Below, one piece after another: positions 5,105 through 51,530 of a stretch of DNA of 64,000 bases. Where the stretch lies: contig JBAZOP010000002.1 in NCBI GenBank assembly GCA_041648665.1, forward strand, positions 50,262 through 114,261, given 5' to 3'. The stretch comes from a bacterium. Its GTDB lineage: Bacteria; UBA10199; 2-02-FULL-44-16; JAAZCA01. The notes beneath the pieces are model-generated. The model ran no database searches, was not told the DNA's origin, and was given only the letters and a program-made list of their open reading frames with translations. Both the position numbers and the translations under genes were made by a program. The stretch's first letter is position 1; each line of letters starts with the position of its first letter.

Positions 5105-5383
5105 TCATCCATTCTTCGATGTGGAATCTCGCAGCAGATCGCCCAGGTTCGTCCCGATCTTCGGTCCGCGATGCCCACGATGCTTCCCATTGTCATGAAC
5201 TGAAGTACACGACGTCATCATTTCGCCCAACGGAAGAAGCTGTTTTGCCACCTTCATCCGAACCACCTGCTCCCACGCTTCCTCGACATCGGCATCCGTC
5301 GCCAGCCCAGCTTCTCGTTGCGCCAAAACCGCTTCCAGTCTCGCATTCGCATCGAGAAACTCCTTCTGCTTGGACTTCAACAT
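5105..5383 (-). CDS. hypothetical protein
   Basis: 92-aa ORF, coiled/charged. Confidence 0.4.
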   Translation of the reverse strand: MLKSKQKEFLDANARLEAVLAQREAGLATDADVEEAWEQVVRMKVAKQLLPLGEMMTSCTSVHDNGKHRGHRGPKIGTNLGDLLRDSTSKNG

Positions 5384-8884: not shown

Positions 8885-10115
8885 TTGACTTTCATCTGTT
8901 CATATGGGACTCTTGCATTGTGAGACGGACAATCATCATCGCGCTTGAGCCAGCCAACGAGCAGCTTGCTGCACTCACGGAGACCTGCGACCTGTTCACC
9001 GAGGTCTTCAACGCCGTCTGCACAGGCGGGTGGCAACACGCCGAAAAGAACGGGGTCCGCCTCCACCACGCCTTCTACCGGCCCCTCAAGGCCCAGCACC
9101 CGACCCTCGTGAGCGACCTGCATGTCCAGGCCCGCGTCAAAGCTACGGAGGCTATCCGAAGCGCGTTGGCCCTCAAACGCAAAGGCAAGAAAGTCTCCTG
9201 CCCGCACTCCACCTCTTGCCCCCCGCGCTACAACCTGCACACCTTCAAGATCGACTGGGCTTCCCGCACCGTGCGCCTGTCCACTACGGCGGGGCGCCAG
9301 ACCATCCGGTTCGCCGTCCCCGTTCACGCGGAGCGGTACGCCGAGCATCCAGTGGACACTGCCGATCTCGTCTGCTGCGAAGGTCGTTGGGCCATGCACG
9401 TCTCCGTCACCGTGCCTGCGCCCGCCGTCGATCCCGTCAATGACGTGGTGGGCGTGGACCTCGGGCTGGCCCAGCCAGCCGTCACGTCCAACAACCAGTT
9501 CCTGGGCAAAAAGGCATGGCGCTCTATCGAGAACCGGCTCTTCAAGCTGAAGCGCAGGCTGCAAGAACGAGGAACCAAGAGCGCCAAGCGCCATCTCAAA
9601 AAGATCCACAAGTCGCAAGCCAGGTTCCGCAGAGATTGCGACCACGTGCTCTCCAAGAAAGTTGTCCAGGCTTGCCCCGCTGGCGGCACGATCGTCTTGG
9701 AAAACCTGACCGACATCCGCAAGCGGGCACGGGCCAAGAGCAACACCGAAGCCAAGCGCCGCCTTCACGGGTGGTCCTTCGCGCAGATCAAGATCTTCAT
9801 CGCGTACAAAGCCGAGGAACGGGGTTGTACGGTGGCCGGGGTCGATCCCCGGCATACCTCGCAACGATGCTCTCGCTGTGGACACACGGCGAAGAACAAC
9901 CGCCGCTCCCGCGCCGTGTTCAAGTGTCGGAAGTGTGGATTTTCCCTCCACGCCGACTTGAACGCAGCTCGCAACATCGCGGCCAAGTACCAGACCCACG
10001 TCGGCATGCCCGATATGGGTGGGCACCCTGTCAACGTGCCTATCGCGGGAGTGGGTGAACTCGTTCATTCAGCTACCTGCAAGCCGCCCGCTTTAGCTGG
10101 CGGTCGTTGACGTAG
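8885..10115 (+). mobile_element. IS200/IS605-family TnpB-only insertion (IS1341-like); ends not defined
   Basis: Carries the intact TnpB gene, has lower GC than its flanks, and the CTGTTGAC promoter-like motif sits at its 5' side. Its 3' end overlaps the convergent gene 10073..10810. Confidence 0.5.
8920..10110 (+). CDS. tnpB: TnpB (OrfB) RuvC-like RNA-guided endonuclease, IS200/IS605 family
   Basis: RuvC-I VVGVDLGL, RuvC-II TIVLENLTD, zinc finger CSRCGH...CRKCG, RuvC-III HADLNAARNIA. All catalytic D/E/D residues are present. Confidence 0.8.
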   Translation: MRRTIIIALEPANEQLAALTETCDLFTEVFNAVCTGGWQHAEKNGVRLHHAFYRPLKAQHPTLVSDLHVQARVKATEAIRSALALKRKGKKVSCPHSTSCPPRYNLHTFKIDWASRTVRLSTTAGRQTIRFAVPVHAERYAEHPVDTADLVCCEGRWAMHVSVTVPAPAVDPVNDVVGVDLGLAQPAVTSNNQFLGKKAWRSIENRLFKLKRRLQERGTKSAKRHLKKIHKSQARFRRDCDHVLSKKVVQACPAGGTIVLENLTDIRKRARAKSNTEAKRRLHGWSFAQIKIFIAYKAEERGCTVAGVDPRHTSQRCSRCGHTAKNNRRSRAVFKCRKCGFSLHADLNAARNIAAKYQTHVGMPDMGGHPVNVPIAGVGELVHSATCKPPALAGGR

Positions 10116-15755: not shown

Positions 15756-16928
15756 TCACGCACCCACGAGTCCCAGCGCCTGCTTGCATCGCTCCACCTC
15801 CTCTGGATCTCCCGAGTGCTTCGTGGGCACATCGGACAGCTTGACCGCGGGGCGCCACGGATTGGTCGGCCACGCCCGCGCCCGCGTCATCTTGATAACC
15901 ATGTTGAGGGGCCGCACCCCCGGGACGTCGCAGGTCAGCGACGTGCCAAGGAGGAACCGCGCCCCGATGCGTCCCTCCATCGCTGACCGAATCGCCTGGA
16001 CGTCGTCCAGGCCCAGGCCGTCGGAGAAGACCATGACCTTCGACCGTGGGTCGATGCCGAGCCGCTCGTAGTGGGCGATCACCTGCTGCGCGCACAGGAG
16101 CGGATCCCCAGAGTCCTGCCGCACGCCGTCGTAGATCCGCGCCCGGAGCCCGTTGAAGGCCCGCAAGAACACCGGCGTCGTGTAGGTGTCCAGGAGCCCG
16201 ATCCCGAGCGCTCCCCGGTAGGTCTCCACCCAGCGGTCGAGCGCGATCGCCGTCGCCTCCTCGTAGCCGAGGATTGCGCCATGGTACATGGTCCACTCGT
16301 GCGCCACGGTGCCCACGCAGGGGAGCCCCATCTCCAGTGCCATGCCCACGTTGCTGGTGGGGATGTTCAGGGCCGCGAGGACCCGCTGGTGTATCTCCCG
16401 CGAGAAGCGGCGCCGCGTGCCGCCCTCGACCACCGGCAGTTGATCCCGGCGGATGAGCAAGCCCTTGGCCGCCGCCCGGTTCACTACGTCCGCGTCGCGG
16501 GCGGGCAGGCTGCCCCCGTGCGACAGCAGGTGGTAGCGCTCGGAGATCAGCGCCATCAGCGGAACCTCCCAGAGCACGGTGCGCAGCCATGGACCGCGCA
16601 CGATCAGACGCAGACGGCGCTCCTCGTCCAAGCTGCACTCCACGATCTCGGACGGGTCGAAGCGGTAGCGCGCCAAGAAGGAGCGGTACCACGGCTGCAC
16701 CGGCAGGACGCGCCCCAGGCCGTCAACCTCGGACTCGGTGAGCGCTGGAGCCGCGACCAGCTCCTCATCGATCCAGCTGCGCAGCTGGGCAAAGGCGGCA
16801 GGCCACGCCACAGGCGTCCGCACGATCAGCTCGTACTCCGCCTCCGCCTGGGGGTAGTGCTGCCCGATGGCTTGCTGCATCGAAAACTTGTAGAGGTCGG
16901 TATCGAGCAAGTGCATCACACGCTCCAT
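15756..16928 (-). CDS. pncB: nicotinate phosphoribosyltransferase (PncB/NAPRTase family)
   Basis: N-terminal LLDTDLYKFSMQQA is the NAPRTase signature. 390 aa. Confidence 0.75.
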   Translation of the reverse strand: MERVMHLLDTDLYKFSMQQAIGQHYPQAEAEYELIVRTPVAWPAAFAQLRSWIDEELVAAPALTESEVDGLGRVLPVQPWYRSFLARYRFDPSEIVECSLDEERRLRLIVRGPWLRTVLWEVPLMALISERYHLLSHGGSLPARDADVVNRAAAKGLLIRRDQLPVVEGGTRRRFSREIHQRVLAALNIPTSNVGMALEMGLPCVGTVAHEWTMYHGAILGYEEATAIALDRWVETYRGALGIGLLDTYTTPVFLRAFNGLRARIYDGVRQDSGDPLLCAQQVIAHYERLGIDPRSKVMVFSDGLGLDDVQAIRSAMEGRIGARFLLGTSLTCDVPGVRPLNMVIKMTRARAWPTNPWRPAVKLSDVPTKHSGDPEEVERCKQALGLVGA

Positions 16929-16957: not shown

Positions 16958-17536
16958 TCACCTGATGGACGCCGTGGCCCCGGCCTCGGCCAGGAGCCTC
17001 ACCGCCCGATCCGCCTCCTCCTTCGACACGCCCATCATCACCGTCGAAGGGGCGCAGTCGGTGAGGTCTTTGGAGTCCTTCAGCCCCAGGCCGGTCAACT
17101 CCCGGATCTCCTTGATGACGTTGATCTTCCTTTCGCCCACCATCTGCAAGATCACGTCGTACTTCTGCTCGGCAGATCCCGGGTGCAACCCCGCGTCCAC
17201 CTCTTTCAGGAACGCAGGCACATCGACAACGCTGCCACGCAGGTCGGCGATGGCCGCGAGGAGGCGCAGGTGATCGATCGGATCCGGCATTCGCAACCTG
17301 TCGAGGATGTCGGCGACACGCTCCCTCTGCTCGTCATCCTCCATCGCCTCCTTGGCGAGGATGCTTCTCTGTTCCTCCAAATCGTAGATTTTCTCGCGGA
17401 ACGCATCGTTCTCCGCCCGGAGTTGCGGGAGATGCTCCCGGAGGGTCGCGATCTCCGCTTCCATCTCGTCCGCCGTCTGCTGCTTCTTCTTCTTCTCGGC
17501 CATGGCATCCTCCTGTTTCGTTGTTTTGCTACCCAC
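16958..17536 (-). CDS. coiled-coil protein with ribosomal protein bL12 (L7/L12) C-terminal-domain homologue
   Basis: The C-terminus KINVIKEIRELTGLGLKDSKDLTDCAPSTVMMGVSKEEADRAVRLLAEAGATASI aligns with the L7/L12 CTD ([47 protein letters not shown]). The N-terminus is charged coiled coil. Confidence 0.6.
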   Translation of the reverse strand: MGSKTTKQEDAMAEKKKKQQTADEMEAEIATLREHLPQLRAENDAFREKIYDLEEQRSILAKEAMEDDEQRERVADILDRLRMPDPIDHLRLLAAIADLRGSVVDVPAFLKEVDAGLHPGSAEQKYDVILQMVGERKINVIKEIRELTGLGLKDSKDLTDCAPSTVMMGVSKEEADRAVRLLAEAGATASIR

Positions 17537-40335: not shown

Positions 40336-42555
40336 CTACGCCGCCAGGTTGCTGATCGCCAGCGACCCCAGCGTGATGATCCGGTTGGCGGCCGGCACGA
40401 GGTTGCCCTCCGGATCGATATCCGAGGGCCCCGTGATGGCGATGTTCGTGTAGACCATGCCGACCGCGGCCTCCTCCACCACTCGGTGCAGGTCCGACAG
40501 GTACAGCGGCTCGTTGAAGTCGCGGCCCTTCAGCAGCTCCACGATGGCCGCCCGCGCCTTGGCCGCCTCCTCCTCGTACACGTAGGCTGGCCCAACGAGC
40601 AGCTCGACCTCGATCTGGGCCGGCACCAGCGCAGCGGCACCGTTTACCACCTGCACCTGCTGCGTGACCTCCTTGATGCCGTCCAGGTACGCCTGGAGTC
40701 CCATGATGAGCCCAACCGATGGCGCCACGTAGTTGCCATCGGCGTCCAGCGACAGGATGGGCACCTGCACGTAGTTGCTCAGGCAGTCGTCGCTGAACAT
40801 CTGGGCGATGCGGACGCGCATCGCATCGGTCTTGACCACGATGTTGGCCTGCAGATCCTCCGCTTTGCCGTCGATATCCGCTGCCTCAGCGCCCAGCGTG
40901 ATCACCAGCGTCTGCAAGCTCGTGGCTGCCGCATCCACGGCCACCTTGATCGCCGGGATCGAGGTGTCCGGCGCCACTGGCGCGTCGTTCGTGAGGGCGT
41001 CCAGCGTGGGGTTGAGCAGGGTGCTGACCGTCAAGTCCAGCATGCCCCCCGCCGCCTGGACCGCGGCCAGGGCCGTCGCCCCCTGCCCCGTAATGCCAGT
41101 CGCCTGGCCGATGGCCGACGTCAGCTCATCAAGTACGTGCGTGCGCGCCGCGCTCGGCGCGAAATTCGCATCATCACTGACGTACGCGTACAAAACCTCC
41201 AACGCCGTCTTCTGGTTCGCTGACGTATCGTTGACGACGGCGATGGCTGTCTCGGCCGTCGTTCCCTGCGCCCGGGCAGCCTGCACGTTGACCTTGGCGC
41301 TCGTAACCCATCCCACGAGGCTGTCCGCCCCCAAAGCCCGCAGATTCTCCAGGGCAGCCATCTGCGCCTGGATCGTGGCCACGTACGTGCTCATGGTGGT
41401 GGCCCCGGTGGCCAGATCCGCCTCCAGGGCAGCCACAGCCGCGACGTACGCTACCAAGTACGCCTCCACATCCTCGACCAGGTTGTTGAAGGTCAGGTCC
41501 GCGTAGGTGCCGCGGGGGTTGAACGCGTACGCCTTGGCCACCGACCCGTACAATGGGTCCACGAAGCTATTGGACAGGGCGTCGTAGTCCAGGGCCGTGA
41601 TGGCCGCGCCGCGCGCAGCGAACGACAGCGGGGCCAGGCGCCGGGCGTGGTCGGTCTCCTCGGGGTCCGTGCCGCCCGTAGGGGCCACCTCGTGGTCCAC
41701 CTCGAACGTGACCTCGGCCCCGCCAATGGAGAGCACGTCGATGCTGCTGCTGATGCTGTGCGCCTTGGGCTCGTTGCCCTTGATCCCGTCGATCACGACG
41801 AAGCGGAGCTTGACCTCCGCACCCGTAGGCGGGATGGCGCCCGCGATGCCATCGCCGAACCGCACGAGGGGCGGCTGCGCCGTGTAGTCCACCTCGAACT
41901 GCTCGTCGTTGGCGTAGGTGAGGAAGGTGCGCTCCTCCCACTCCAAGCCGTCCACCCAGGCTTCCACGCTCAGATCAGCCAGGTAGCGATCCTCGGGCAC
42001 GCTCGACAGCGGGTAGGTCTGGTTGGCCGCCCCGTTCGCCGTGAACGTCAGCAGGAACGTGTCGCCCTGGCGCACGCTCACTGTCCGCTGGGTTCCTGGA
42101 GCCAACGCCAGGGGCTCAACGAGCGCCGCGTAGGACTCGTAGACGAGCCCCGCCGGCCCCTGGTACCGCCACCGCGCGGGCATCGTGAAGGGCCCCGTGG
42201 TGCCATCGGGGAAGGTCAGCGAGAGTTCCACGCTGGCCGCCGCGGCCGGACGCATCTTGTAGCCCAGCTGCCGCACGATCCTGTTCGCGGCGCTCGGCGT
42301 GCGGGCTGTCTCCAGGAAGCAGTCCGACGCCGTCCGGTCCAGGTACCACTGGAGCTGCGCCGTGGCGTAGGCCATCATCTCGATGAGCATGATGCCCTGC
42401 GTCGTAGTGGCGTAGTCGTTGTACACCGTGGTATAGACCGCCTTCAGCCGCCGCAGCAAGTCGTCGAAGATCGACGCGTAGTCGCGGGCCGCGTACTTCA
42501 CCGTGTTGAGCGGCGCCCGGTCAGCTACCAGCGGCTCGTATGGATCGGTTGCCAT
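40336..42555 (-). CDS. baseplate J-like protein (gp6/gpJ/Mu gp47 family)
   Basis: N-terminal ARDYASIFDDLLRRLKAVY...GIMLIEMMAYATAQLQWYL is the typical Baseplate_J signature. Confidence 0.6.
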   Translation of the reverse strand: MATDPYEPLVADRAPLNTVKYAARDYASIFDDLLRRLKAVYTTVYNDYATTTQGIMLIEMMAYATAQLQWYLDRTASDCFLETARTPSAANRIVRQLGYKMRPAAAASVELSLTFPDGTTGPFTMPARWRYQGPAGLVYESYAALVEPLALAPGTQRTVSVRQGDTFLLTFTANGAANQTYPLSSVPEDRYLADLSVEAWVDGLEWEERTFLTYANDEQFEVDYTAQPPLVRFGDGIAGAIPPTGAEVKLRFVVIDGIKGNEPKAHSISSSIDVLSIGGAEVTFEVDHEVAPTGGTDPEETDHARRLAPLSFAARGAAITALDYDALSNSFVDPLYGSVAKAYAFNPRGTYADLTFNNLVEDVEAYLVAYVAAVAALEADLATGATTMSTYVATIQAQMAALENLRALGADSLVGWVTSAKVNVQAARAQGTTAETAIAVVNDTSANQKTALEVLYAYVSDDANFAPSAARTHVLDELTSAIGQATGITGQGATALAAVQAAGGMLDLTVSTLLNPTLDALTNDAPVAPDTSIPAIKVAVDAAATSLQTLVITLGAEAADIDGKAEDLQANIVVKTDAMRVRIAQMFSDDCLSNYVQVPILSLDADGNYVAPSVGLIMGLQAYLDGIKEVTQQVQVVNGAAALVPAQIEVELLVGPAYVYEEEAAKARAAIVELLKGRDFNEPLYLSDLHRVVEEAAVGMVYTNIAITGPSDIDPEGNLVPAANRIITLGSLAISNLAA

Positions 42556-42629
42556 GGCGATCTTACCATTTCACAAACAGGACGAGATGCCGCTTGACAT
42601 TCGCCCCAACGTGACCCATATTGTCTCCT

Positions 42630-42764
42630 ATGAGACGCGAAAACTTCAAGGTCAACCTGGATCCCGACTTGGCCGCCTGGCTCCGCGCCGAGGCCGCCCG
42701 CCGCCGCTGCTCCTTCTCGCAGGTCGTGCGGGAACTCATCGCCGCCGCCATGGCCCAAAAATGA
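42630..42764 (+). CDS. ribbon-helix-helix small protein (44 aa), translationally coupled to TnpB
   Basis: Hand-translated MRRENFKVNLDPDLAAWLRAEAARRRCSFSQVVRELIAAAMAQK. Its stop overlaps the tnpB ATG as ATGA. Confidence 0.45.
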   Translation: MRRENFKVNLDPDLAAWLRAEAARRRCSFSQVVRELIAAAMAQK

Positions 42765-43957
42765 TCCTGGCCCAGCGCATCCGGCTCGCCCCCAACAACG
42801 TCCAGGCGAGCTTCCTGGAGCGCTGCGCCGGTGCGGCCCGCTTCACCTACAACTGGGGCCTGGCCCGCTGGCAGGAAATCCACGCCGTCGGCGGCACGCC
42901 CTCCTGGCGCACCCTCAACGCCGAGATCAACGCCCGGAAGGACCGCGACCTGGGGTGGCTCCGCGATCTTCCATGGGCCGTCCCCAACACCGCCCTCGCC
43001 GACCTCGGGCGCGCCTTCGGCCACTTCTTCCGGCGGGTGAAGGCCGGCCAGCGCCCCGGCTACCCGCGCTTCAAGGCCAAGAAACGCTGCACCCCCGCCT
43101 TCGCCATCGAGGGCCGCGCGATCCACTTCGACGGCCGCCGCGTGCACCTCCCCAAGCTCGGCTGGGTGCGTACCCGCCAGCCCCCCCGCTTCCCCGGCCG
43201 CGTGCTGAGCGCACGCTTCTCGAAACACGCCGGCCACTGGGACCTCGCTATCCAAGTCGAGATCGACGAAACCCGCTGGACCTACCCCCACCGCTGCGAA
43301 ACCCAAGCAGCGGTCGGCGTGGACCTCGGCGTGGTCGACCTCGCCGTGCTCTCCACCGGCGAACACGTCCCGGCCCCCCGCAGCCTGCGGCACCACGCCG
43401 CCCAACTCCGGAGGTTGAACAAGGAACTGTCCCGCCGCACCCGCGGCGGCCAGAACTGGCAGAAAACGAAGGCGAAGCTCGGGCTCCTGCACGAGCACAT
43501 TGCCCACGTGCGGCACGCCGCCACCCACGCGCTGACCGCCTCCCTCGTCCACCACTTCCGCTGGATCGGCATCGAGGACCTGCACGTCGCCGCGATGATG
43601 CGAGGAAGGCTCGCCACCTCCCTCCAGGATGCCGCGATGGCCGAGGTTCGCCGTCAACTCGCTTACAAGGCGCCCCTCGCCGGGAGCACCGTGGTCGTCG
43701 CCGACCGCTTCTACCCGAGCAGCAAGACGTGCGCCACCTGCGGCGTCATCTACGCCGACCTCGCCCTGAACGAGCGCCGGTGGACCTGCGAAAGCTGCGG
43801 GGCCGAGCACGACCGCGACGAGAACGCCGCCGAGAACCTGTACCAATTGGCCGCCGCCCAGGCGGTGACAGCCTGCCGCCACGAGAGCGCTGGCGCCCTT
43901 CGGGACGCGCAACTCTCGCTTGGGCAGGAATCGGGCCACGCTGTTAGCTTCGGTTAG
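42761..43957 (+). CDS. tnpB: TnpB (OrfB) RuvC-like endonuclease, IS200/IS605 family
   Basis: AVGVDLGVVD, IGIEDLHV, CATCG...CESCG, HDRDENAAENL. The catalytic triad is intact. Start at MILAQRIRL; the track extension is upstream junk. Confidence 0.8.
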   Translation: MILAQRIRLAPNNVQASFLERCAGAARFTYNWGLARWQEIHAVGGTPSWRTLNAEINARKDRDLGWLRDLPWAVPNTALADLGRAFGHFFRRVKAGQRPGYPRFKAKKRCTPAFAIEGRAIHFDGRRVHLPKLGWVRTRQPPRFPGRVLSARFSKHAGHWDLAIQVEIDETRWTYPHRCETQAAVGVDLGVVDLAVLSTGEHVPAPRSLRHHAAQLRRLNKELSRRTRGGQNWQKTKAKLGLLHEHIAHVRHAATHALTASLVHHFRWIGIEDLHVAAMMRGRLATSLQDAAMAEVRRQLAYKAPLAGSTVVVADRFYPSSKTCATCGVIYADLALNERRWTCESCGAEHDRDENAAENLYQLAAAQAVTACRHESAGALRDAQLSLGQESGHAVSFG

Positions 43958-43982: not shown

Positions 43983-44411
43983 TCATCCACCTGCCAGCGG
44001 CAGCGTCACCTGCGTCTGCTGGGTCTGCGGCTGTCCCACCCTGCGGTACAGCACGTCCACGATGATCGCTGTCTCTACCCCGTCCGCCTTCTCGCTCAGG
44101 CGCGAGTCCACGGCCAGCACCTCCGCCTGCGGCACGAAGGTCTCGATCGCCTGCGTCACCTCGCTGGCGACGCGCGCTTGCAACAGCGGAGTCATGTTGT
44201 TGAAGATCAGCCGGTGGATGTTCACCCCCATGTCCGCATGCATCAGCCGCTCGTTCGTCCCCGTCAGCATCAGCGCCACGATCGAGCAGAACAGCGCCGC
44301 ATCCGGGTCCGCCAGCGCCGGGAACCCCTCCTTCCCCAACTGGAAGGGGAACGCGAAGGTCTTGACGACCTGCGCATCGGAGACGGGCGGTGGCGCGTTG
44401 ACCGTCGGCAT
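43983..44411 (-). CDS. baseplate assembly protein W (gp25-like, GPW_gp25)
   Basis: FPFQLGKEGFPA...NIHRLIFNNMTPLLQARVAS. Confidence 0.65.
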   Translation of the reverse strand: MPTVNAPPPVSDAQVVKTFAFPFQLGKEGFPALADPDAALFCSIVALMLTGTNERLMHADMGVNIHRLIFNNMTPLLQARVASEVTQAIETFVPQAEVLAVDSRLSEKADGVETAIIVDVLYRRVGQPQTQQTQVTLPLAGG

Positions 44412-44477
44412 CTTCCTACCCTATCACGCCAGCGCGCGAAAGGCACGCTGCTGGACCAGCGAACACGTGTGCGCCGA

Positions 44478-44819
44478 TCAGTCGAGGGGGCATCCTGGCA
44501 TCTCCGGTAGGCCCGGCAGCCCCGGGATCGCCGGGATCGGCAACCCGGGGATGGGAATCGCCAGCTTCAGCGTCGGCAACCCCAGCGACAGCCCCACACT
44601 TGGGAGCCCTGGCAGCCCTGGCAGCCCCGGGGGGGACGGGAGCGCGAACGGCAGCCCCGGCACCGGGATCGCCAGCGTCAGGGAGGGCAGCCCCAGCGAC
44701 ACGCCAAAGGACGGGAGGCTGGGCAGCCCTGGCAGCCCCGGGATCGCCGGGATCGGTAGCCCGGGCACGGGGATCGCCAGCGCCAGCGTGGGCGGCGTCG
44801 GGATCCGGCAGTTCGACAT
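44478..44819 (-). CDS. Pro/Leu/Gly-rich (GLP)n repeat protein
   Basis: Strong SD GAAGGAG 8 nt upstream of ATG. About 35-aa units (LAIPVPGLPIPAIPGLPGLPSLPSFGVSLGLPSLT) repeated roughly 2.5 times. Confidence 0.45.
   Translation of the reverse strand: MSNCRIPTPPTLALAIPVPGLPIPAIPGLPGLPSLPSFGVSLGLPSLTLAIPVPGLPFALPSPPGLPGLPGLPSVGLSLGLPTLKLAIPIPGLPIPAIPGLPGLPEMPGCPLD
44490..44800. repeat. about 105-nt tandem repeat, roughly 2.5 copies, underlying the GLP-repeat protein
   Basis: Repeated PGLPGLP / LAIP(V/I)PGLP blocks visible in the translation and in the DNA. Confidence 0.5.
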
Positions 44820-44834
44820 GGATGCGCTCCTTCG

Positions 44835-45815
44835 TCATGCGACGTACACCTTGGTCGACAGCTCCTTGCCCATCGTAGGCGGTGGCTGCGCCCCGGGGGC
44901 CACCGGGCTCCCCGGCGTTGGCGTCCCGATGAGGTGGCCCGCTGCGCCATGGGTGATGGCCCAGATCATGAGCTTAGTCCCCAGCACAGCGGGCTCGCTC
45001 GCCCCCTTGCCCAACATGACCGTGCCCGCGTTAGCCGCGAACTGCTGCGAGCAGTCGGCGACCACGTTGTCCCCCGTGATCGTGATGTTCTTGCCGTCGA
45101 TGCCGATGGCCCCGCCGCTCTTCGTGGCCAGCGTGATCTTGTCGTCGCCCAGCATCAGCAGCGACGTGACCTCCTGCTGGTCGTTGGCGGTCATGATGCT
45201 GGTCTCCGCCTTCGTAGCGCTCATGAAGATCGTGCTACCGTTCTGGTTTTCGATCTGCACCGCGCCGTCCTTGTCCATCGCCAGGAAGACCGGGCTGGGC
45301 GCCCCCGCCCCGTCGCCCTTGCACAGCATGATGTGGAGATCCTCGGGGTCGTCCGACATGCGCAGGAAGTGACCCGCGCGCGTGCGGATGCCCTTCCGCA
45401 ACGCACCCTCCGCATCAAAGGTGTCGCTGGCTTTCTCCGCGATGAGGTAGCCCCCCATGTAGACGGGAAATTCCGGGTCGCCGTGCTGGAACTGCATCCA
45501 TACCGCCGCGCCGACATCCGGCGGGTGGAACAGTCCGCTCACCTGCTTGGTTTCCGGGTCCACCGCCAGCCCCGGCATGCATGGCCAGGCCCACCACCCC
45601 TTCCCCACCTGATCGGGGCGCCGCACGCCAACGGCGGGGCACAGCGCTTGAATGCGGCCCCGGTTGTCCGGGTCGGCGTTGTTCACCACCGTGCCGGGGT
45701 AGATGCCGTAGTAGCGCTTGGCGAACCCCTCGATTCCAATGCGCGCCAGCGTATCACACAGCCACCCGATCGGGTCCAACCGGCGCCTGTTCGCATCTGG
45801 GCGGTTCCCTAACAT
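44835..45815 (-). CDS. baseplate hub/spike protein (gpV / Mu gp45-like, Phage_base_V OB-fold)
   Basis: GTVVNNADPDNRGRIQALCPAVG is the typical gpV/VgrG N-terminal motif. Confidence 0.6.
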   Translation of the reverse strand: MLGNRPDANRRRLDPIGWLCDTLARIGIEGFAKRYYGIYPGTVVNNADPDNRGRIQALCPAVGVRRPDQVGKGWWAWPCMPGLAVDPETKQVSGLFHPPDVGAAVWMQFQHGDPEFPVYMGGYLIAEKASDTFDAEGALRKGIRTRAGHFLRMSDDPEDLHIMLCKGDGAGAPSPVFLAMDKDGAVQIENQNGSTIFMSATKAETSIMTANDQQEVTSLLMLGDDKITLATKSGGAIGIDGKNITITGDNVVADCSQQFAANAGTVMLGKGASEPAVLGTKLMIWAITHGAAGHLIGTPTPGSPVAPGAQPPPTMGKELSTKVYVA

Positions 45816-45818
45816 GAT

Positions 45819-47195
45819 CTACTCCGGCACCTGTCCCGCGGGCGTCGTCTTCTTTTCGCCCTCTGGATCTACGCCGCCAGCCCCCTGGCGCATGACGGTC
45901 AGGCTCATCTCGTAGCTGCCCGGCCCCCACGTGTGGGTCGCCTTCTGCACAAGGTAGGGGCCGTTGTAGATCTCGCCGGCCCCCGCGAGGTTGACGTACA
46001 TGCCCGGGATCACCCAGGGCAAGCCCAGCGACGTGATGACGCCCTGCTGCGCTGGGTTCCCAGCCGTTTGCCGCCAATCCGCAACGTTCTGAGCGCGGCT
46101 CGCTCCTGCTGCTCCAGGAGGCATGGGCTCACTCGCGTAAACAGCTGGCGTGCCATCCTGCTTGACGCCGTCTCCGATCAGTTCTCCACCTCCCTCATCT
46201 GCGAGGGACAAATCCTGCTGGATCGCCGGCAACGACCCAGCCGTCGCCACCTGCTGCTCCTCTGGCAGCGCAACCTTCTCCACAACCTTTCCCGTGTCCT
46301 GATCGATGTAGGCGATCAGCACACCCTTGCCTGCTTGATCATCCCCACCAACCAGCCACGTCGCGCTCGCCCCTCCCCCTTCCGGGGCCCAACTCAGGCA
46401 CGGGAAGGTGGACGTAGACAAGTCCACGACCCCGCGCAAGCGAAATGTCGGCCGCGGCAACGTAGACGGATCCGCCTTAGATCCGGTCGCAGCCTGCTTG
46501 ATGAACCCGAGCGACACCTCCAGCTCAGTAGCAACGTAGACCGTGTTGATCCGCGAGCTAGGATCTGTTACGTCCGGCCCGATCCAGTAGGTCAGGTTCA
46601 TGAGAGCGCAGATCCGCTTGATCGCTTCCCAAGCCGTCAGCCTCGCATACGCCAGCGGGTGCCACATCGTTTTGAACGATGCGAAGGAGTCCGGGTCATA
46701 TGACGCAGCAATCTGACACGCATCCAGCGCCCCAGGAGAAAGCGCGGGCAGCAGACCCATCGCCGCGATGCACTTCTCCAGCATGCTCTTCGGCGACTGG
46801 TCCAGCACGACCAGCTCCTTCGAGATTGTGTAGTGCGCCCCCTCCGCTGTCACCTGCACGGTGATCTGGCCCGACAGGCCGTTCGCGTCCAACGTGAGGC
46901 CATCGCCCCCAGCCTTCAGGAATCCCCCGAACCACGGCGTCCACCAGTCGGGCCGCGATGCGTACCCGATGCGCGCCTGCGCGTGCATGCCAATGGCAAA
47001 CGGCGTGTCGCTCCCCAGCATCGCGATCGCCTCGTCGTACGGCGCATCGAACGTGAGCTGCAAGGTGGCCGTCCGGCCAAACTCGTACAGCATCGCGACG
47101 CCCGTCAGGAACGGCGCGCTCGGGGGCGCAAAGATCCACTCCCTGCCCGATTTTGGGCTCTTGAACCGAACCTGCGCCACGGGATCGGTGAACAT
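45819..47195 (-). CDS. tail protein D-like (late control D / baseplate hub)
   Basis: Right position (after TMP and X) and size. Weak motif similarity only. Confidence 0.45.
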   Translation of the reverse strand: MFTDPVAQVRFKSPKSGREWIFAPPSAPFLTGVAMLYEFGRTATLQLTFDAPYDEAIAMLGSDTPFAIGMHAQARIGYASRPDWWTPWFGGFLKAGGDGLTLDANGLSGQITVQVTAEGAHYTISKELVVLDQSPKSMLEKCIAAMGLLPALSPGALDACQIAASYDPDSFASFKTMWHPLAYARLTAWEAIKRICALMNLTYWIGPDVTDPSSRINTVYVATELEVSLGFIKQAATGSKADPSTLPRPTFRLRGVVDLSTSTFPCLSWAPEGGGASATWLVGGDDQAGKGVLIAYIDQDTGKVVEKVALPEEQQVATAGSLPAIQQDLSLADEGGGELIGDGVKQDGTPAVYASEPMPPGAAGASRAQNVADWRQTAGNPAQQGVITSLGLPWVIPGMYVNLAGAGEIYNGPYLVQKATHTWGPGSYEMSLTVMRQGAGGVDPEGEKKTTPAGQVPE

Positions 47196-47198
47196 GCG

Positions 47199-47564
47199 TC
47201 AGCTTCCCTGCGGGAGGAGCTTGCGCTCCACCCACTCCCGCCGAGGGATCTTCAGGAGGCGCCCCACGTACAACTGCACGTCCGGCAGGTCCATGCCGTT
47301 GCGTGCCGCGATGACCCACCCGCGATCGCTGCGGCTGTAGTAGCGCAGCGACAGGATGTCCAGCCGCATGCTGGGGCTGTCCACGACGTAGTCGTCCTCG
47401 TTCTCGGTCACCCCCTCCCAGGAAGGCATGACGAACGGCTCGCGGAACCGCACGGGGGATCCCACCTCCAGGTCCCACACCACCGCCTCCGCCATGAAGC
47501 GCATCGGCGATCCAGCGTCCGCCGTGAGCACGCGCGCGGGGATGGTCGGGGTCGGCGCAGGCAT
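47199..47564 (-). CDS. tail protein X-like with LysM-like domain
   Basis: MRLDILSLRYYSRSDRGWVIAARNGMDLPDVQLYVGRLLKIP fits the LysM pattern. Confidence 0.45.
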   Translation of the reverse strand: MPAPTPTIPARVLTADAGSPMRFMAEAVVWDLEVGSPVRFREPFVMPSWEGVTENEDDYVVDSPSMRLDILSLRYYSRSDRGWVIAARNGMDLPDVQLYVGRLLKIPRREWVERKLLPQGS

Positions 47565-47567
47565 TGA

Positions 47568-50500
47568 TCAGCCTCCCAGTACAACCTCTCCACCCGACCC
47601 AACCTTGCCGCGGGTGATGAGGTCGCTCTTCGCGATGGTTTCCGTGTTCGCGCGGATCTTGTCCAGGATCGCGCGCTGCTTCGCGCTCTCGTTGATGATG
47701 GCCATGGTCACCCCGGCCATCCCGGGGATGTTCAGCATGGCGCGCATCTGGGCCTTCACGTCCTCGGTTTTTCCCTCCACCGTCACCGTGCTCTGGAGCG
47801 ACCCGCCGAAGTCGCGCATCATCATGTTCGCCACGTCTGCCAGCAAGCTCTTCTTCCGCGCCAACTCCTCCATCTTGGCCTTGTAGGCGTCGAACGTCGC
47901 GTACACCGAGGCGTCCAGGGTGTCGTTCACCGCCTGGGTCACCAGATCCACGCTCGTCGTGATCCCGCTAGCGAAAGACTCCATCAGCGCCATGCCAGCG
48001 TTGAACGCCGGATCAGCCGGTCCTCCAGCTCCAACGTTTGCCAATGGTCCGTCCAGAATCGGAGAATGTGACGTCAGGCGATCCGCCACCGTCTGCGCAG
48101 CGATATCCGCTCCCTTTACCATCGCATCAATGCTCGGCTGTTCAGTCATGCCACCGGCGAACCCCAGGCTGACTTCTGCACCGGCATTCATCGCGCCCAC
48201 CGCTGCCTGCCCGAACGCCTCGCTCACCTTCTGCGCGGCAGCCTGCGCTGCAAGCTGCGCCTGCGATTCCACGTTGGTCAACCGCTGCTGGGCCTCCTCC
48301 ATCTGGATCTTCGCCTCGGCCCGGACCTCTTCCTGGCGGATGATCAAGTCCATGGCCTTCTTCACACCGACCGTCAGCGCATCGTCCTTGATGCCAGCAG
48401 CACCGGCTGACTTCGTGATCTGCGCCTGTACCCCCTTCAAGACGGCAGACGCCTTCGCTGCCTCCGTCTCGGCTTGCGTCAGCGCCGATAGCCCTTCTGG
48501 TGTAGTAATGTCCTTCCCCTGCAACCCCGACAGGGCCTTCTTGGCTTCCGCTTCCTGGTGAGCAGCCACTGACAACTTGTCCGCCTGCGCCTGCCACCCA
48601 GCCATCCACTTCTGTTCACGCTCGACCTGTTTCTTACCCTTCTTCTCGCCCGCGATGTCCGCGCCAGTGCCGATGCCAAACGCCTCCAGCGCGCCCGTTG
48701 CAGCCACCCCCTGCCCTTCCACCATCGCTGTCCAATTCTTCTTGTGCTTTTCAAACCCTTCCTTCACCTGCGCAAGACGGTCTTGCATATCCTTGGCCCG
48801 CTCTGATGCAAGTTTCGCTTCTAATTCTTTTCCCTTCTTCTCTGCGTACTCTGGATATGCCAACTGCAATACAATATCCTGCAACCCAACAGACACTTCC
48901 TGGATGAACTTCTGCACCTTCAGCGCGAACCCGTGGATGTAGTTGCGCATCGACTCCAGCATGTTGGAGAAGTACCGCGAGATCGAGACATCGCCTTCCT
49001 GGGATGCCTGATCCATTCCGCTTCCAAACATACCAGCAATGGTCTGTGTCAACCCTACTGTGCTCACTCCGGCGATCCGGATTGCTCCCTCTCCAGCGGT
49101 CATGATGCTATCACGAGCACGTCCAATCCATTTGGCCGTGGTCGTTGCCCACGATGTATCCAATTCAGCCGAATCGAACGTCGCCAGTTCATTCAAAGCC
49201 GCTTTGCGGTACTCTACGCTCTGAAGCGCGATCTGCTGCGACACCGCCGTAGACGCGCGGATACCGTTGGCGATGCCACTCACCAGCGATGATCCAGCGT
49301 CCTCCCCGGCACCCTCCAGGTTTATGTCTTTTACCAAAGACTTCGACTTTTTTACCGCATGCTCCATCCCATCATCGAAGTTATTCTTGAAGTTGTACCA
49401 CCAGTCTTCGATGGCCCATCCTGCGTCCTGCAACCCCTCCTTCACGTTGAGTTTGAACTCGCTGAACTCGGGGTCCTTCTGCAACCCATCCCACCACCCC
49501 TTGATGCTGTCGCCCATCCCGGAGAAGCTGTCCTTCACGTCCTCCCACGTCCATGAGTCCCACCACTCCGAAACGCTGTCCACGACCTCCTTGCCCAGCC
49601 CCCACAGCATCTTGCCCAGGCCCTTGGCCGCCTCCCAGATGGCGCCCCCCAGGTTCTCGATGAACTTGGTCCCAGCCTTCCCAAGCTCCCCTTCTGCTTC
49701 CTTGCCAGTGATCCACCCCCAGATGGCCTTGGGGATGAACGTGAGTGCATTCCACACGAAGCTACCGATGCTCTTTCCCACCTGCGCCCAATCGATCTTG
49801 GCCAGAAAATCGCGGATCTTTCCCGCAAGTCCTCCCACCCAATCGAGTGCTTTGGAAAAGACCTTACCCAGGTCCATCCCCCTCTTGGAAAGCATCTTTA
49901 TGCCGACCACGACGCCGCCAATCACTAACCCGATGAGTCCTAGCTTTCCAATGAATCCACCCAGTCCCCGTGTGAGCAATCCACCCGGCCCAGTCAGGAT
50001 GGACAACTGGCCGAACAACGACATGACTGGCCCCGCCGACGTTGCCACCGACCCCAACGCCGATCCTGCCAGCTCAACGATGGCCGAGAACTTGGCCATC
50101 TCCTTGTTGGACCCCTCCAAGTCCATGATCAACCCTCTGAACCCCAGCTGGTTCGCCGCCGACAGCCGCTTGATCAGCGGCCCCCATGTCTCGTCCGACG
50201 CCAGCTGCTTGGTCTGCGCTGCCACCTCGTTGTAGGCCCGCCCCATGTCTCCCACGAACCGCACCACGTCCTTGCGGGCGATAGCCCGGAACTTGGTCTC
50301 GAAGCTGGACTTCATGAGGTCCATCGACTCCTGGAGCGTGCGGCCCGTGCTGAACGCCTGGTTGGCGTAGTCCTTCAGCGAGAACTTGCCATCCGACGTG
50401 ATCTTGCTGACCCGCTCCAGCGCCTTGGCGCCAGAATCCCCGCGCTGCGCGAGGTACCCCAGCCCGTTCGCCGCCTCGCCCAGCGCCCCGCTGAGTTCAG

Positions 50501-51530
50501 ACAGCATGGCCTGCTGCTGCGCACCACCCGTGCCGAAGCGATCGAACACCCCCTGGAGCAACTGCGTGCCCTTCACCGCGTCGCGCGACCCCACCTCGAT
50601 GATGTTCACCGCCTCGTCCATCCCCACGCCCAGCTTGGTCATCCATTGGAACAGCGGAGAGTCATCAAGGGACCCGATGCCGTACTTCATCGCCCGCTCA
50701 ATCGCAACCGCCTGATCCGCGAACATCTGGGCCGTCTGCTGGCCCAACTGGACCGCCTCCTCCTCGCTGCTGCCCATGGACCGGAACGCGCCCGAGAGGC
50801 GCACGGTGGACTCGGTGAGCGCCATCATCTCGTCGCCGCTACGCCGCATCTCCGGGGGCACCTTCTCGAACGTCTTGGCCAGGCCCTCCAGGTTGCCCTT
50901 GAGCTTCTTGAGCGGTTCCACGCCCACGCCCGCCTTGCGTCCCAAGTCGGTCAAGCGATTGATGTACTTGACCTCGTCCGCCGCGCTGGCCTGCCACCAC
51001 GCCCCCAGGCCGCCCATGGCGTCGGTCAGCTGGTCCATCTCGATCCCGGTCGTCTCCGTGATCTTCACCCAGTCCTTGGCCGAGTACCCCAGCGCGTCCA
51101 GCGCCTCCTTGGCAGGCCCCGTCGCCTGGTTCATCCCCTTGAACACCTTCGCCACCGTCTCCGCGCCGACGTTCAGCGAGATCGCCATCGACGAGATCTG
51201 GCCCGTCATCCGCCGGGCTTCCTTGCCCGTCAGGTTCAGGGATGCCACAAACGGCTTGGCCGCCTTGGCGTTGGCCACGGCCATCGCCTCCAGGCTGTTG
51301 GTCAGGTTGCCCGTGTCGCCCGTCAGGGAGCGCACATCCGACGCGATGGAGGCGATGTTGAACTGCTTGATGCTCTCGAAGAACCCCGGGACGTCCGACT
51401 TCTTGGCGATCTTGGACTGGGTCTCCATCGTGTCGTTGAGCTTGTCCATGCTGGACTGCGCCGACGACATGGCGGCCTTCATCCCCACGTCCCGCGCCCC
51501 CATGCCCCATGAGATGCCCAGCAGGTTCAC
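47568..51530 (-). CDS. tail tape-measure protein (1320 aa)
   Basis: Very long helical, Ala/Gly/Lys-rich ORF directly downstream of the chaperone frameshift pair. GTG start with SD GGTAGGAGG. Confidence 0.8.
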   Translation of the reverse strand: MNLLGISWGMGARDVGMKAAMSSAQSSMDKLNDTMETQSKIAKKSDVPGFFESIKQFNIASIASDVRSLTGDTGNLTNSLEAMAVANAKAAKPFVASLNLTGKEARRMTGQISSMAISLNVGAETVAKVFKGMNQATGPAKEALDALGYSAKDWVKITETTGIEMDQLTDAMGGLGAWWQASAADEVKYINRLTDLGRKAGVGVEPLKKLKGNLEGLAKTFEKVPPEMRRSGDEMMALTESTVRLSGAFRSMGSSEEEAVQLGQQTAQMFADQAVAIERAMKYGIGSLDDSPLFQWMTKLGVGMDEAVNIIEVGSRDAVKGTQLLQGVFDRFGTGGAQQQAMLSELSGALGEAANGLGYLAQRGDSGAKALERVSKITSDGKFSLKDYANQAFSTGRTLQESMDLMKSSFETKFRAIARKDVVRFVGDMGRAYNEVAAQTKQLASDETWGPLIKRLSAANQLGFRGLIMDLEGSNKEMAKFSAIVELAGSALGSVATSAGPVMSLFGQLSILTGPGGLLTRGLGGFIGKLGLIGLVIGGVVVGIKMLSKRGMDLGKVFSKALDWVGGLAGKIRDFLAKIDWAQVGKSIGSFVWNALTFIPKAIWGWITGKEAEGELGKAGTKFIENLGGAIWEAAKGLGKMLWGLGKEVVDSVSEWWDSWTWEDVKDSFSGMGDSIKGWWDGLQKDPEFSEFKLNVKEGLQDAGWAIEDWWYNFKNNFDDGMEHAVKKSKSLVKDINLEGAGEDAGSSLVSGIANGIRASTAVSQQIALQSVEYRKAALNELATFDSAELDTSWATTTAKWIGRARDSIMTAGEGAIRIAGVSTVGLTQTIAGMFGSGMDQASQEGDVSISRYFSNMLESMRNYIHGFALKVQKFIQEVSVGLQDIVLQLAYPEYAEKKGKELEAKLASERAKDMQDRLAQVKEGFEKHKKNWTAMVEGQGVAATGALEAFGIGTGADIAGEKKGKKQVEREQKWMAGWQAQADKLSVAAHQEAEAKKALSGLQGKDITTPEGLSALTQAETEAAKASAVLKGVQAQITKSAGAAGIKDDALTVGVKKAMDLIIRQEEVRAEAKIQMEEAQQRLTNVESQAQLAAQAAAQKVSEAFGQAAVGAMNAGAEVSLGFAGGMTEQPSIDAMVKGADIAAQTVADRLTSHSPILDGPLANVGAGGPADPAFNAGMALMESFASGITTSVDLVTQAVNDTLDASVYATFDAYKAKMEELARKKSLLADVANMMMRDFGGSLQSTVTVEGKTEDVKAQMRAMLNIPGMAGVTMAIINESAKQRAILDKIRANTETIAKSDLITRGKVGSGGEVVLGG

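What the first reader, a model, noticed from the sequence alone, without database searches (positions are those of the whole stretch)
44478..44819. GLP/LAIPxPGLP-repeat protein encoded between the baseplate spike and W genes by an about 105-nt tandem repeat
A strongly SD-supported minus-strand ORF encodes 35-aa units of Pro/Leu/Gly repeats (collagen-like G-L-P triplets interrupted by LAIPVPGLP) ending in PGCPLD. The opposite strand also yields long Gly/Ser/Pro ORFs, so the coding frame deserves verification. A short repeat protein at this position is where PAAR-like spike-tip or spike-decoration proteins usually sit.
Basis: seen in the sequence. Interest (0 to 1): 0.5.

Follow-up and report, generated by a model that had tools for sequence, protein, structure and literature searches.

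The report
Three-repeat proline-rich protein beside phage spike
A real, conserved but undescribed small phage gene sits right after the tail-spike gene and encodes three near-identical oily, proline-rich repeats capped by two invariant cysteines, most likely a single-copy part that fits onto the three-fold symmetric spike, although no structure or experiment yet shows this.

Summary
Minus-strand ORF 44478-44819 (113 aa, AAGGAG 7 nt before the ATG) lies between the central spike gene (Phage_base_V) and the gp25/W gene. It consists of an 11-aa head (MSNCRIPTPPT), three repeats of 35/37/30 aa (105- and 111-nt DNA units) and the tail PGCPLD.

The minus frame is the coding one. About 30 homologues from uncultured phage contigs keep this frame, start, stop and position, and dN/dS is 0.26. 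The opposite-strand Gly/Ser/Pro frame stays open only because the protein lacks Tyr, His and Gln.

The family has no Pfam, PHROG, NCBIfam or PDB relative, is not a PAAR protein by sequence, and is not collagen-like because the Gly is not conserved.

All complete close homologues have exactly three repeats. Repeats within one protein are more alike (83.5%) than same-rank repeats between proteins (65.5%), although their codons are nearly randomised.

With two near-invariant terminal cysteines and frequent start/stop overlap with the spike gene, I infer a monomeric, pseudo-threefold partner of the trimeric spike complex. It works like PAAR/gp5.4 but is not a member.

Doubts remain. AlphaFold2 gives no confident fold. 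Most partner spikes already carry the HxH apex motif. One relative has the domain fused to the W-position protein.

It is a new family, of moderate interest.

The parts
44478..44819 (-). Coding sequence of the 113-aa proline-rich three-repeat protein (stop codon 44478-44480)
   Evidence: ORF list and translation. The frame, start and stop are conserved in homologues. dN/dS is 0.26.
44827..44832 (-). Shine-Dalgarno sequence AAGGAG, 7 nt upstream of the ATG at 44819
   Evidence: Read directly from the sequence.
44787..44819 (-). N-terminal head MSNCRIPTPPT with the near-invariant Cys4
   Evidence: C4, I6 and P7 are invariant in 9 close homologues. C4 is invariant in the 21-sequence alignment and conserved in at least 90% of the 26-sequence alignment.
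44682..44786 (-). Repeat 1 (aa 12-46, LALAIPVPGLPIPAIPGLPGLPSLPSFGVSLGLPS)
   Evidence: Direct-repeat family D1/D2 and repeat extraction.
44571..44681 (-). Repeat 2 (aa 47-83, LTLAIPVPGLPFALPSPPGLPGLPGLPSVGLSLGLPT). It is the only window repeat that keeps the family's conserved Phe.
44481..44570 (-). Repeat 3 plus C-terminal motif (aa 84-113, LKLAIPIPGLPIPAIPGLPGLPEMPGCPLD). Cys110-Pro111 are invariant.
   Evidence: C110 and P111 are invariant in the alignments.
44835..45815 (-). Central spike gene (OB domain plus beta-helix), the presumed partner. The window copy has H-GAAG-H where relatives have HQH.
   Evidence: Pfam Phage_base_V, E = 1.3e-10. PDB relatives are VgrG and CIS spikes. C-terminal comparison.
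43983..44411 (-). gp25/W baseplate wedge gene immediately downstream
   Evidence: Pfam GPW_gp25, E = 2.9e-8. PHROG baseplate wedge subunit.

Best explanation
[quoted passage not shown] One polypeptide carries three equivalent hydrophobic repeats. Each repeat has a short beta-like LxLAIPxP stretch followed by x-[LIM]-P triplets of polyproline-II type. Each repeat is proposed to contact one subunit of the homotrimeric spike, or of the spike plus hub, so that a monomer acquires local three-fold symmetry. PAAR/gp5.4 does this on VgrG/gp5, and gp38 does it on gp37. The two near-invariant cysteines, 4 residues from either end, would come together where the ring of three repeats closes, as a disulfide or a shared metal ligand. 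The protein is made together with the spike through a shared operon, often with overlapping stop and start. It would fold only on the spike and travel with it into the host envelope on sheath contraction, where its very oily surface (GRAVY +0.81) could help membrane passage or spike release.

Shown here:
- the gene is real and under purifying selection
- the family and its fixed position next to the spike gene
- exactly three repeats, kept alike at protein level
- two conserved cysteines
- no relation to PAAR by sequence

Inferred, not shown:
- binding to the spike
- one copy per virion
- ring closure by the cysteines
- any role at the membrane
- whether it sits at the tip, around the shaft or neck, or inside the hub
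For: 1. Coding and selected. The frame, start and stop are conserved in all syntenic homologues. dN/dS is 0.26.

2. Fixed position. The gene lies directly after the Phage_base_V spike gene and before GPW_gp25/GP46-like and Baseplate_J genes. This holds in the window, in 10 IMG/VR and 2 MAG loci, in 18 metagenome loci, and in distant family members L014, L015, L016/17 and L018. The gap between spike stop and small-gene start is between -4 and +25 nt where the adjacent spike gene was correctly identified.

3. Three repeats. All 17 complete close homologues analysed have three. By my reading of the sequences, the distant members do too.

4. Repeats kept alike at protein level. Identity between repeats of one protein is 0.835. 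After shuffling same-rank repeats among proteins it is 0.655 +/- 0.013 (0 of 2000 shuffles reach the observed value). Yet 47.4% of identical residues use different codons, against 53.3% expected for independent codon choice. This argues for selection for equivalent repeats rather than recent gene conversion. Variable repeat positions 9, 13 and 16 are uniform within a protein but differ between proteins.

5. Cysteines. Cys4 and Cys110 are invariant or nearly so across a family with only 33-36% mean column identity.

6. No autonomous fold. AlphaFold2 gives pLDDT 52.6 and 60.7, pTM 0.11 and 0.13, and no secondary structure. This is compatible with folding on a partner.

7. No PAAR elsewhere. No Pfam PAAR match appears among the families listed for 70 window ORFs or in the 10 small ORFs near the tail module.

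8. Precedent. PMC12407873 describes monomeric tip proteins that reach local three-fold symmetry through three motif copies.
Against: - No structural model exists. AlphaFold2 is uninformative, and complex prediction could not be run.
- Most partner spikes carry HxH (HQH, HAH or HTH) about 33 residues from the C-end. This is taken in the literature as an apex domain that needs no tip protein (PMC12407873, PMC10811340).
- In L019 the domain is fused in frame to the protein at the W/gp46 position. If genuine, this points to a location near the wedge and to six copies per baseplate.
- A few database members have one or two repeats (L006, P0001, P0093, P0131, P0144, P0156). Collapse of tandem repeats during assembly is a plausible cause: L005 and L006 are otherwise identical, and L011 has Ns at the same spot.
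- In the window itself, repeats 1 and 3 lack the conserved Phe-x that repeat 2 keeps, so this copy is less symmetric than its relatives.
- Old gene conversion followed by synonymous drift cannot be excluded as the cause of repeat similarity.
Confidence: 0.45

Rival explanations
1. It is a wedge-associated inner-baseplate protein. It binds the gp25/W-like protein, in up to six copies per baseplate, and bridges the six-fold wedge ring to the three-fold spike and hub, rather than sitting as one copy on the axis.
For: In L019 (NCBI MAG GCA_034680565.1) the family domain continues without a stop (CPLD-LVLP-MSGFG...) into the protein that occupies the W/gp46 position, directly before Baseplate_J. 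The C-terminal part of that protein resembles the GP46-like protein of L014 (24% identity, E = 3e-4 for that single comparison). The gene always lies directly upstream of W.
Against: There is only one fusion, from a MAG, and an internal ATG could still give a separate W. A six-copy wedge partner gives no reason for the strict three-repeat design or for keeping the repeats equivalent. Start/stop overlap is with the spike gene. In the close clade, W is separated from the small gene by a 40-80 nt gap that carries a conserved palindrome.
Confidence: 0.2
2. It is a non-virion helper, an assembly chaperone or scaffold for trimerisation of the spike or its attachment to the hub. It is discarded before the virion is complete.
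For: It shares an operon and translational coupling with the spike. It has no autonomous fold. Three repeats could template a trimer.
Against: Its hydrophobicity is extreme (GRAVY +0.81, 5 charged residues in 113). A free soluble chaperone of this kind would be unusual. The two invariant cysteines and the tight conservation of repeat equivalence fit a permanent structural contact better. No similarity to known phage chaperones was found.
Confidence: 0.12
3. It is a divergent PAAR-family spike-tip protein that caps the blunt end of the spike beta-helix.
For: It sits where tip genes often lie. It has about the PAAR size (about 100-125 aa), three internal repeats and a conserved Cys. No PAAR is detected elsewhere in the window.
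Against: None of 21 members matches PAAR_motif or any related Pfam or NCBIfam model, even at E <= 1. There is no PDB sequence relative. The window protein has no His at all, whereas the PAAR metal site needs three His plus one Cys (PMC12407873). No beta-hairpins are predicted. Most partner spikes have an HxH apex.
Confidence: 0.05
4. The ORF is not a gene. The true product is the opposite-strand Gly/Ser/Pro frame or the overlapping 140-aa minus-strand frame, or the region is non-coding repeat DNA.
For: The opposite-strand frame that shares the wobble column is open in all ten homologues examined. Its GC3 equals that of the sense frame.
Against: A stop in that antisense frame requires a sense TAN or CAN codon (Tyr, His, Gln). 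The protein almost entirely lacks these residues, so openness is automatic (reasoning and the composition). The antisense open stretch has no conserved start or end, and it runs 49-934 nt into the antisense of the spike gene. Its dN/dS is 0.37 against 0.26 for the sense frame. The 140-aa frame has dN/dS 3.1 and is interrupted in L005, L006 and L010. The sense ORF has a strong SD and exactly fills the spike-to-W gap on the operon strand in every genome.
Confidence: 0.02

Closest known systems
PAAR-repeat spike-tip proteins (T4 gp5.4, T6SS VCA0105/c1882; Pfam PF05488, DUF4280)
   Same: Both are small (about 100 aa) proteins encoded next to the spike gene. Both have three internal motif copies that give one chain local three-fold symmetry to match a trimeric spike. 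Both have a conserved Cys. This is the functional analogy I favour.
   Different: There is no sequence similarity. The His3Cys metal site is absent, and the window protein has no His at all. Composition is 27% Pro and 21% Leu, with x-[LIM]-P triplets rather than beta-hairpins. No fold is predicted. It is often paired with spikes that already have an HxH motif.
Apex domain of HxH spikes (P2 gpV, phi92 gp138, Mu gp45, Milano gp27)
   Same: Both belong to the same class of baseplate module. Most partner spikes here have HQH, HAH or HTH near the C-terminus.
   Different: In those phages no separate small protein is encoded after the spike, and the apex is considered to replace a tip protein (PMC12407873, PMC10811340). 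Here a conserved extra gene follows, and the spike continues for about 32 residues past the HxH, including a PPP-M/L-Y-x-ELS motif.
T-even gp38 adhesin on the gp37 fibre tip
   Same: A monomer binds the end of a trimer. The protein is built largely from left-handed extended (polyglycine/polyproline-II type) helices. This resemblance comes from my own knowledge and from the mention in PMC12407873.
   Different: gp38 is Gly-rich, larger, sits on a fibre rather than the spike, and is unrelated in sequence. The resemblance is by analogy only and was not tested here.
Collagen-like phage proteins
   Same: Short runs of G-L-P triplets occur in the window copy.
   Different: Gly is not conserved at the triplet position in relatives. 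There is no Pfam Collagen match. The runs are only 2-3 triplets long.

Membership tests
PAAR-repeat spike-tip proteins | Match to PAAR_motif (PF05488) or related models (DUF4280, DUF4150) | tested here: not met
   No Pfam family at E <= 0.1 for the window protein. None of 21 family members matches any PAAR-type model at E <= 1. NCBIfam gives no match at E <= 1.
PAAR-repeat spike-tip proteins | Tetrahedral metal site formed by three His and one Cys (PMC12407873) | tested here: not met
   The window protein contains no His (composition). The only conserved potential ligands are two Cys.
PAAR-repeat spike-tip proteins | Cone of three beta-hairpins | tested here: inconclusive
   AlphaFold2 with 6- and 21-sequence alignments gives pLDDT 52.6 and 60.7, pTM 0.11 and 0.13, and no secondary structure. 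The models are too poor for a fold search.
PAAR-repeat spike-tip proteins | Three motif copies giving a monomer local three-fold symmetry | tested here: met
   Three repeats in all 17 complete close homologues, kept alike within each protein. The motif itself differs from PAAR.
PAAR-repeat spike-tip proteins | Binds as one copy to the blunt C-terminal end of the trimeric spike beta-helix | not testable with these tools
   No complex prediction or experiment is available. Most partner spikes have HxH near the C-end, which argues against a blunt end.
Collagen-like triple-helix proteins | Long uninterrupted Gly-X-Y repeats with invariant Gly | tested here: not met
   Gly at the triplet position is replaced by S, T, A, E, D or K in homologues. 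No Collagen Pfam hit.
Lipoprotein / o-spanin-like proline-rich proteins | Signal peptide with a lipobox Cys, encoded in a lysis cassette | tested here: not met
   The Cys is at residue 4 with no preceding hydrophobic signal segment (sequence). The gene lies inside the baseplate operon.
New family defined here (M-x(0-3)-C-x-[FI]... three Pro-rich repeats ...C-P-[LFM]-[DE]) | N-terminal Cys, three hydrophobic Pro-rich repeats, C-terminal CP[LFM][DE], and a gene directly after the central spike gene | tested here: met
   The window protein has all four features. They are shared with homologues, and with the contexts.

The most novel reading that the evidence does not exclude
A second, non-PAAR solution to placing one polypeptide on a three-fold symmetric injection spike. 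The protein would be a hydrophobic ring or cap rich in polyproline-II structure, closed by two terminal cysteines. It would coexist with an HxH iron apex and so contradict the rule of thumb that HxH spikes carry no separate tip or collar protein. It might act as a membrane-active sleeve during penetration.
Probability: 0.3. Interest if true: 0.7.

Novelty: new variant of a known kind. Interest (0 to 1): 0.5.

Why it matters
Spike-tip and spike-associated proteins decide how contractile tails, tailocins and engineered injection systems breach membranes. So far nearly all known separate tip proteins are PAAR-type.

This family is absent from Pfam, PHROGs, NCBIfam and the PDB, yet it is fixed next to the spike gene in a clade of large uncultured phages. 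It would add a new building block to these machines. It would also test the assumption that HxH spikes need no partner.

The signature found here may be useful more widely. Internal repeats kept identical at protein level while their codons drift could serve as a purely computational flag for monomers that dock onto symmetric oligomers.

The finding also gives annotators a recognisable motif: N-terminal Cys, three Pro-rich repeats, C-terminal CPLD.

Tried and rejected
- **Single-sequence protein search:** no hit at E <= 1e-3. The word index is swamped by Pro-rich proteins, and profile searches were needed.
- **Exhaustive profile search:** 155 hits, mostly 1000-6000-aa low-complexity proteins. 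Inspection of the 240-580-aa hits showed compositional matches and no spike fusion.
- **GenBank phages:** no DNA or protein match for the small protein, for a distant member, or for the spike. The J protein finds only gp6-like wedges at about 25-27% identity.
- **GC3 frame test:** it cannot separate the sense frame from the antisense frame that shares the wobble column. A purine/pyrimidine wobble test had too few usable columns.
- **Structure prediction:** The two accepted jobs gave no confident fold, so no fold search was run.
- **PDB profile search:** only a chance hit (E = 0.54).
- **Literature searches:** no proline-rich or polyproline spike partner, and no non-PAAR tip protein of this kind, was found.
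- **Disulfide to the spike as the role of the cysteines:** rejected as a general explanation, because the L015 spike has no Cys.
- **RNA hairpin in the gap before W:** the gap folds no better than shuffles (z = -0.46).
- **Extra ORF in L030:** it has no Pfam match.

Full report
**What is there**

The window is 66% G+C. On the minus strand it carries a contractile-tail module. Pfam and PHROG scans of the window's ORFs find a sheath, gp19-like tube proteins, T4_baseplate and gp9/10-like proteins. The following genes, in transcription order, are placed by coordinates:
- the presumed tape measure, by size and position only (47568..51530)
- a small protein with a weak LysM match (47199..47564)
- the hub (45819..47195)
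- the central spike (44835..45815, Phage_base_V OB domain, E = 1.3e-10)
- the ORF in question (44478..44819)
- GPW_gp25 (43983..44411)
- an IS605-type TnpB on the other strand (42503..43957)
- a gp6/J-like wedge protein (40336..42555)

The ORF encodes 113 aa: MSNCRIPTPPT, then three repeats of 35, 37 and 30 aa, ending in PGCPLD. AAGGAG lies 7 nt before the ATG, and the spike stop is 15 nt upstream. The DNA repeats are spaced 105 and 111 nt apart and are 63-85% identical. That is too diverged for Tandem Repeats Finder, which saw only 9-nt sub-repeats.

**Which frame is coding**

GC3 cannot decide. The minus frame (GC3 0.895) and one plus-strand frame (0.903) use the same wobble column. Relatives settle the question. 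The spike protein found 10 IMG/VR contigs of up to 195 kb and 2 MAG contigs. Wherever the sequence downstream of the spike gene was present, the same-sense ORF filled the gap between spike and W. It had a conserved start (M-[ST]-x-C-[KR]-I-P) and a conserved end (C-P-L-D, stop).

A metagenome scan added 18 more loci. Pairwise dN/dS has a median of 0.26 in this frame, 0.37 in the antisense frame that shares the wobble column, and 0.95-3.1 in the other four frames.

The antisense frame is open in all ten homologues examined, but this is automatic. A stop in that frame needs a sense TAN or CAN codon (Tyr, His or Gln), and the protein almost entirely lacks these residues. Its open stretch has no conserved ends and runs into the antisense of the spike gene. 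The overlapping 140-aa minus-strand ORF is interrupted in L005, L006 and L010 and has dN/dS of about 3. The minus-strand 113-aa ORF is the gene.

**The family**

The window protein has no Pfam or PHROG match. A 21-member alignment has no Pfam, NCBIfam or PDB sequence match. No match was found in 50,697 GenBank phage records. Profile searches of the large protein collections recovered about 30 small proteins (100-160 aa) that share one plan:
- a Cys at residue 2-5 followed by x-[FI]
- hydrophobic proline-rich repeats
- C-P-[LFM]-[DE] at or within 8 residues of the C-terminus

Cys110 and Pro111 are invariant. Cys4 is invariant in the 21-sequence alignment and at least 90% conserved in the 26-sequence one, in alignments whose mean column identity is only 33-36%.

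Where context could be read, the order was the same: tape measure, then a small protein or DNA_circ_N, hub, spike, this gene, a GPW_gp25 or GP46-like gene, and Baseplate_J (L014, L015, L016/17, L018). The start often overlaps the spike stop by 4 nt.

The other hits of the exhaustive search were 1000-6000-aa low-complexity proteins and were discarded after inspection.

**Three repeats, kept alike**

Every complete close homologue has three repeats. Reading the sequences, the distant members do too.

The exceptions have one or two repeats: L006, P0001, P0093, P0131, P0144 and P0156. They come from metagenome assemblies, several of them from short contigs. L006 is otherwise identical to L005, which has three repeats, and L011 has Ns at the same spot. 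Repeat collapse during assembly is therefore a likely cause, though not a proven one.

Across 17 proteins, repeats of one protein are 83.5% identical over a 24-residue core. Shuffling same-rank repeats among proteins gives 65.5 +/- 1.3%, and 0 of 2000 shuffles reach the observed value. Yet 47.4% of the identical residues use different codons, close to the 53.3% expected if codons were chosen independently. Variable positions (repeat positions 9, 13 and 16) are uniform within a protein but differ between proteins.

The repeats are therefore old at the DNA level but held equivalent at the protein level. This is what one expects if each repeat meets an equivalent surface of a symmetric trimer. 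Ancient conversion followed by synonymous drift cannot be ruled out. Either way, three equivalent repeats are maintained.

**What it probably does**

The three-fold symmetric parts of a contractile-tail baseplate are the spike and the hub (PMC10811340, PMC12407873). Four lines of evidence point to a spike-complex partner:
- adjacency to the spike gene and coupling with it
- the three equivalent repeats
- the cysteines at both chain ends
- the absence of an autonomous predicted fold (pLDDT 52.6 and 60.7, pTM 0.11 and 0.13, no secondary structure)

I take it to be a single-copy, pseudo-threefold structural partner of the spike complex that folds on the trimer. The cysteines would meet where the ring closes.

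Prolines are mostly 3 residues apart, in x-[LIM]-P triplets. This would put Leu, Pro and the variable residue on separate faces of a polyproline-II helix. That is an inference from the sequence pattern.

The protein is extremely hydrophobic (GRAVY +0.81, five charged residues). It must therefore be buried in a complex or be meant to meet a membrane.

This is the working principle of PAAR/gp5.4 (PMC12407873), but the protein is not a member of that family. No PAAR model matches, it has no His for the metal site, and no hairpins are predicted.

**What does not fit**

- Most partner spikes carry HQH, HAH or HTH about 33 residues from the C-end. This motif binds Fe in the P2, phi92 and Mu spikes and is held to mark spikes without a separate tip protein (PMC10811340, PMC12407873). 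The window, L007 and L030 have H-G-A-[AG]-G-H instead. L014, L015 and L019 have no HxH. A PAAR-style cap on a blunt helix end is therefore unlikely for much of the family. A collar on the shaft or neck, a sleeve over the roughly 32-residue Pro-rich tail that follows the HxH, or a position inside the hub are all open.
- In L019 the domain runs in frame into the protein at the W position. That is a single case from a MAG, but it is the basis of the main rival: a wedge-associated protein.
- The L015 spike has no Cys, so the conserved cysteines are not there for a disulfide to the spike, at least in that phage.
- In the window copy, repeats 1 and 3 both lack the conserved Phe-x.

**Novelty and verdict**

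The gene is real, conserved and undescribed in every library and paper collection I could search. It is best filed as a new family that probably works like a known kind of part, a monomer adapted to a trimeric spike, without belonging to the PAAR family. The function rests on inference from synteny, repeat number and repeat co-variation. Complex structure prediction and a 3:1 pull-down would decide it. Interest is moderate (0.5).

Noticed in passing
window 44459-44474; also near 7458, 8494, 18859, 21243, 29726, 35672, 51546, 53103, 58298: A 16-bp palindrome, GCG[A/C]ACACGTGT[G/T]CGC, occurs about 10 times in the window. At up to 2 mismatches there are 14 matches against 5.9 +/- 2.2 expected, and 0 of 100 shuffles reach that number. 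By comparison with my rough ORF map, most copies lie between genes, several just upstream of a start codon. One copy sits in the 66-nt gap between the Pro-rich ORF and W. In relatives, GCGAAC-N4-GTTCGC occurs exactly once per locus in 21 of 47 loci, and where I compared positions it lies a few to about 20 nt after the small gene's stop. The central 4 nt vary, and in L001-L010 the palindrome is followed by GATAGGAT just before the W start. As RNA, the window gap folds no better than shuffles (z = -0.46), so a protein-binding DNA site seems as likely as a hairpin.
   Followed up: partly
window 42503-43957 (+) and 8920-10110 (+): Two IS605-type TnpB genes (OrfB_IS605 plus Cas12f1-like TNB domain). 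The first is inserted between the W and J baseplate genes, on the opposite strand. It is absent from all relatives examined, where J follows W directly.
   Followed up: partly
window 16958-17536 (-): A 192-aa ORF whose C-terminal 66 residues match the ribosomal protein L7/L12 C-terminal domain (E = 3.7e-22). It lies next to a NAPRTase gene (15756-16928), in what otherwise looks like a phage genome.
   Followed up: no
L030 871-1488 (+), and the same position in L041: An extra 205-aa Cys-rich ORF lies between the spike gene and the small gene in two metagenome relatives. It has no Pfam match. From its sequence it could be a mobile nuclease-type insertion, but this is unverified.
   Followed up: partly
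window 44835-45815 (-), residues ~285-295; L007, L030: The spike of the window and its nearest relatives has H-G-A-[AG]-G-H where the rest of the clade has HQH or HAH. This looks like a replacement or expansion inside the presumed iron-binding HxH motif.
   Followed up: partly
L005 4986-5363 versus L006 4986-5240; L011 ~5120-5240: Otherwise identical phage contigs differ by exactly one 41-aa repeat (125 versus 84 aa), and a third assembly has Ns at the same place. This is either real copy-number variation or repeat collapse during assembly.
   Followed up: no
P0122 (352 aa; sequence): A 352-aa protein starts MPCMC... and ends ...MPCPNIFCIA, with LPELP-type repeats between. It may be a much larger relative of the family, or only a compositional match.
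   Followed up: no
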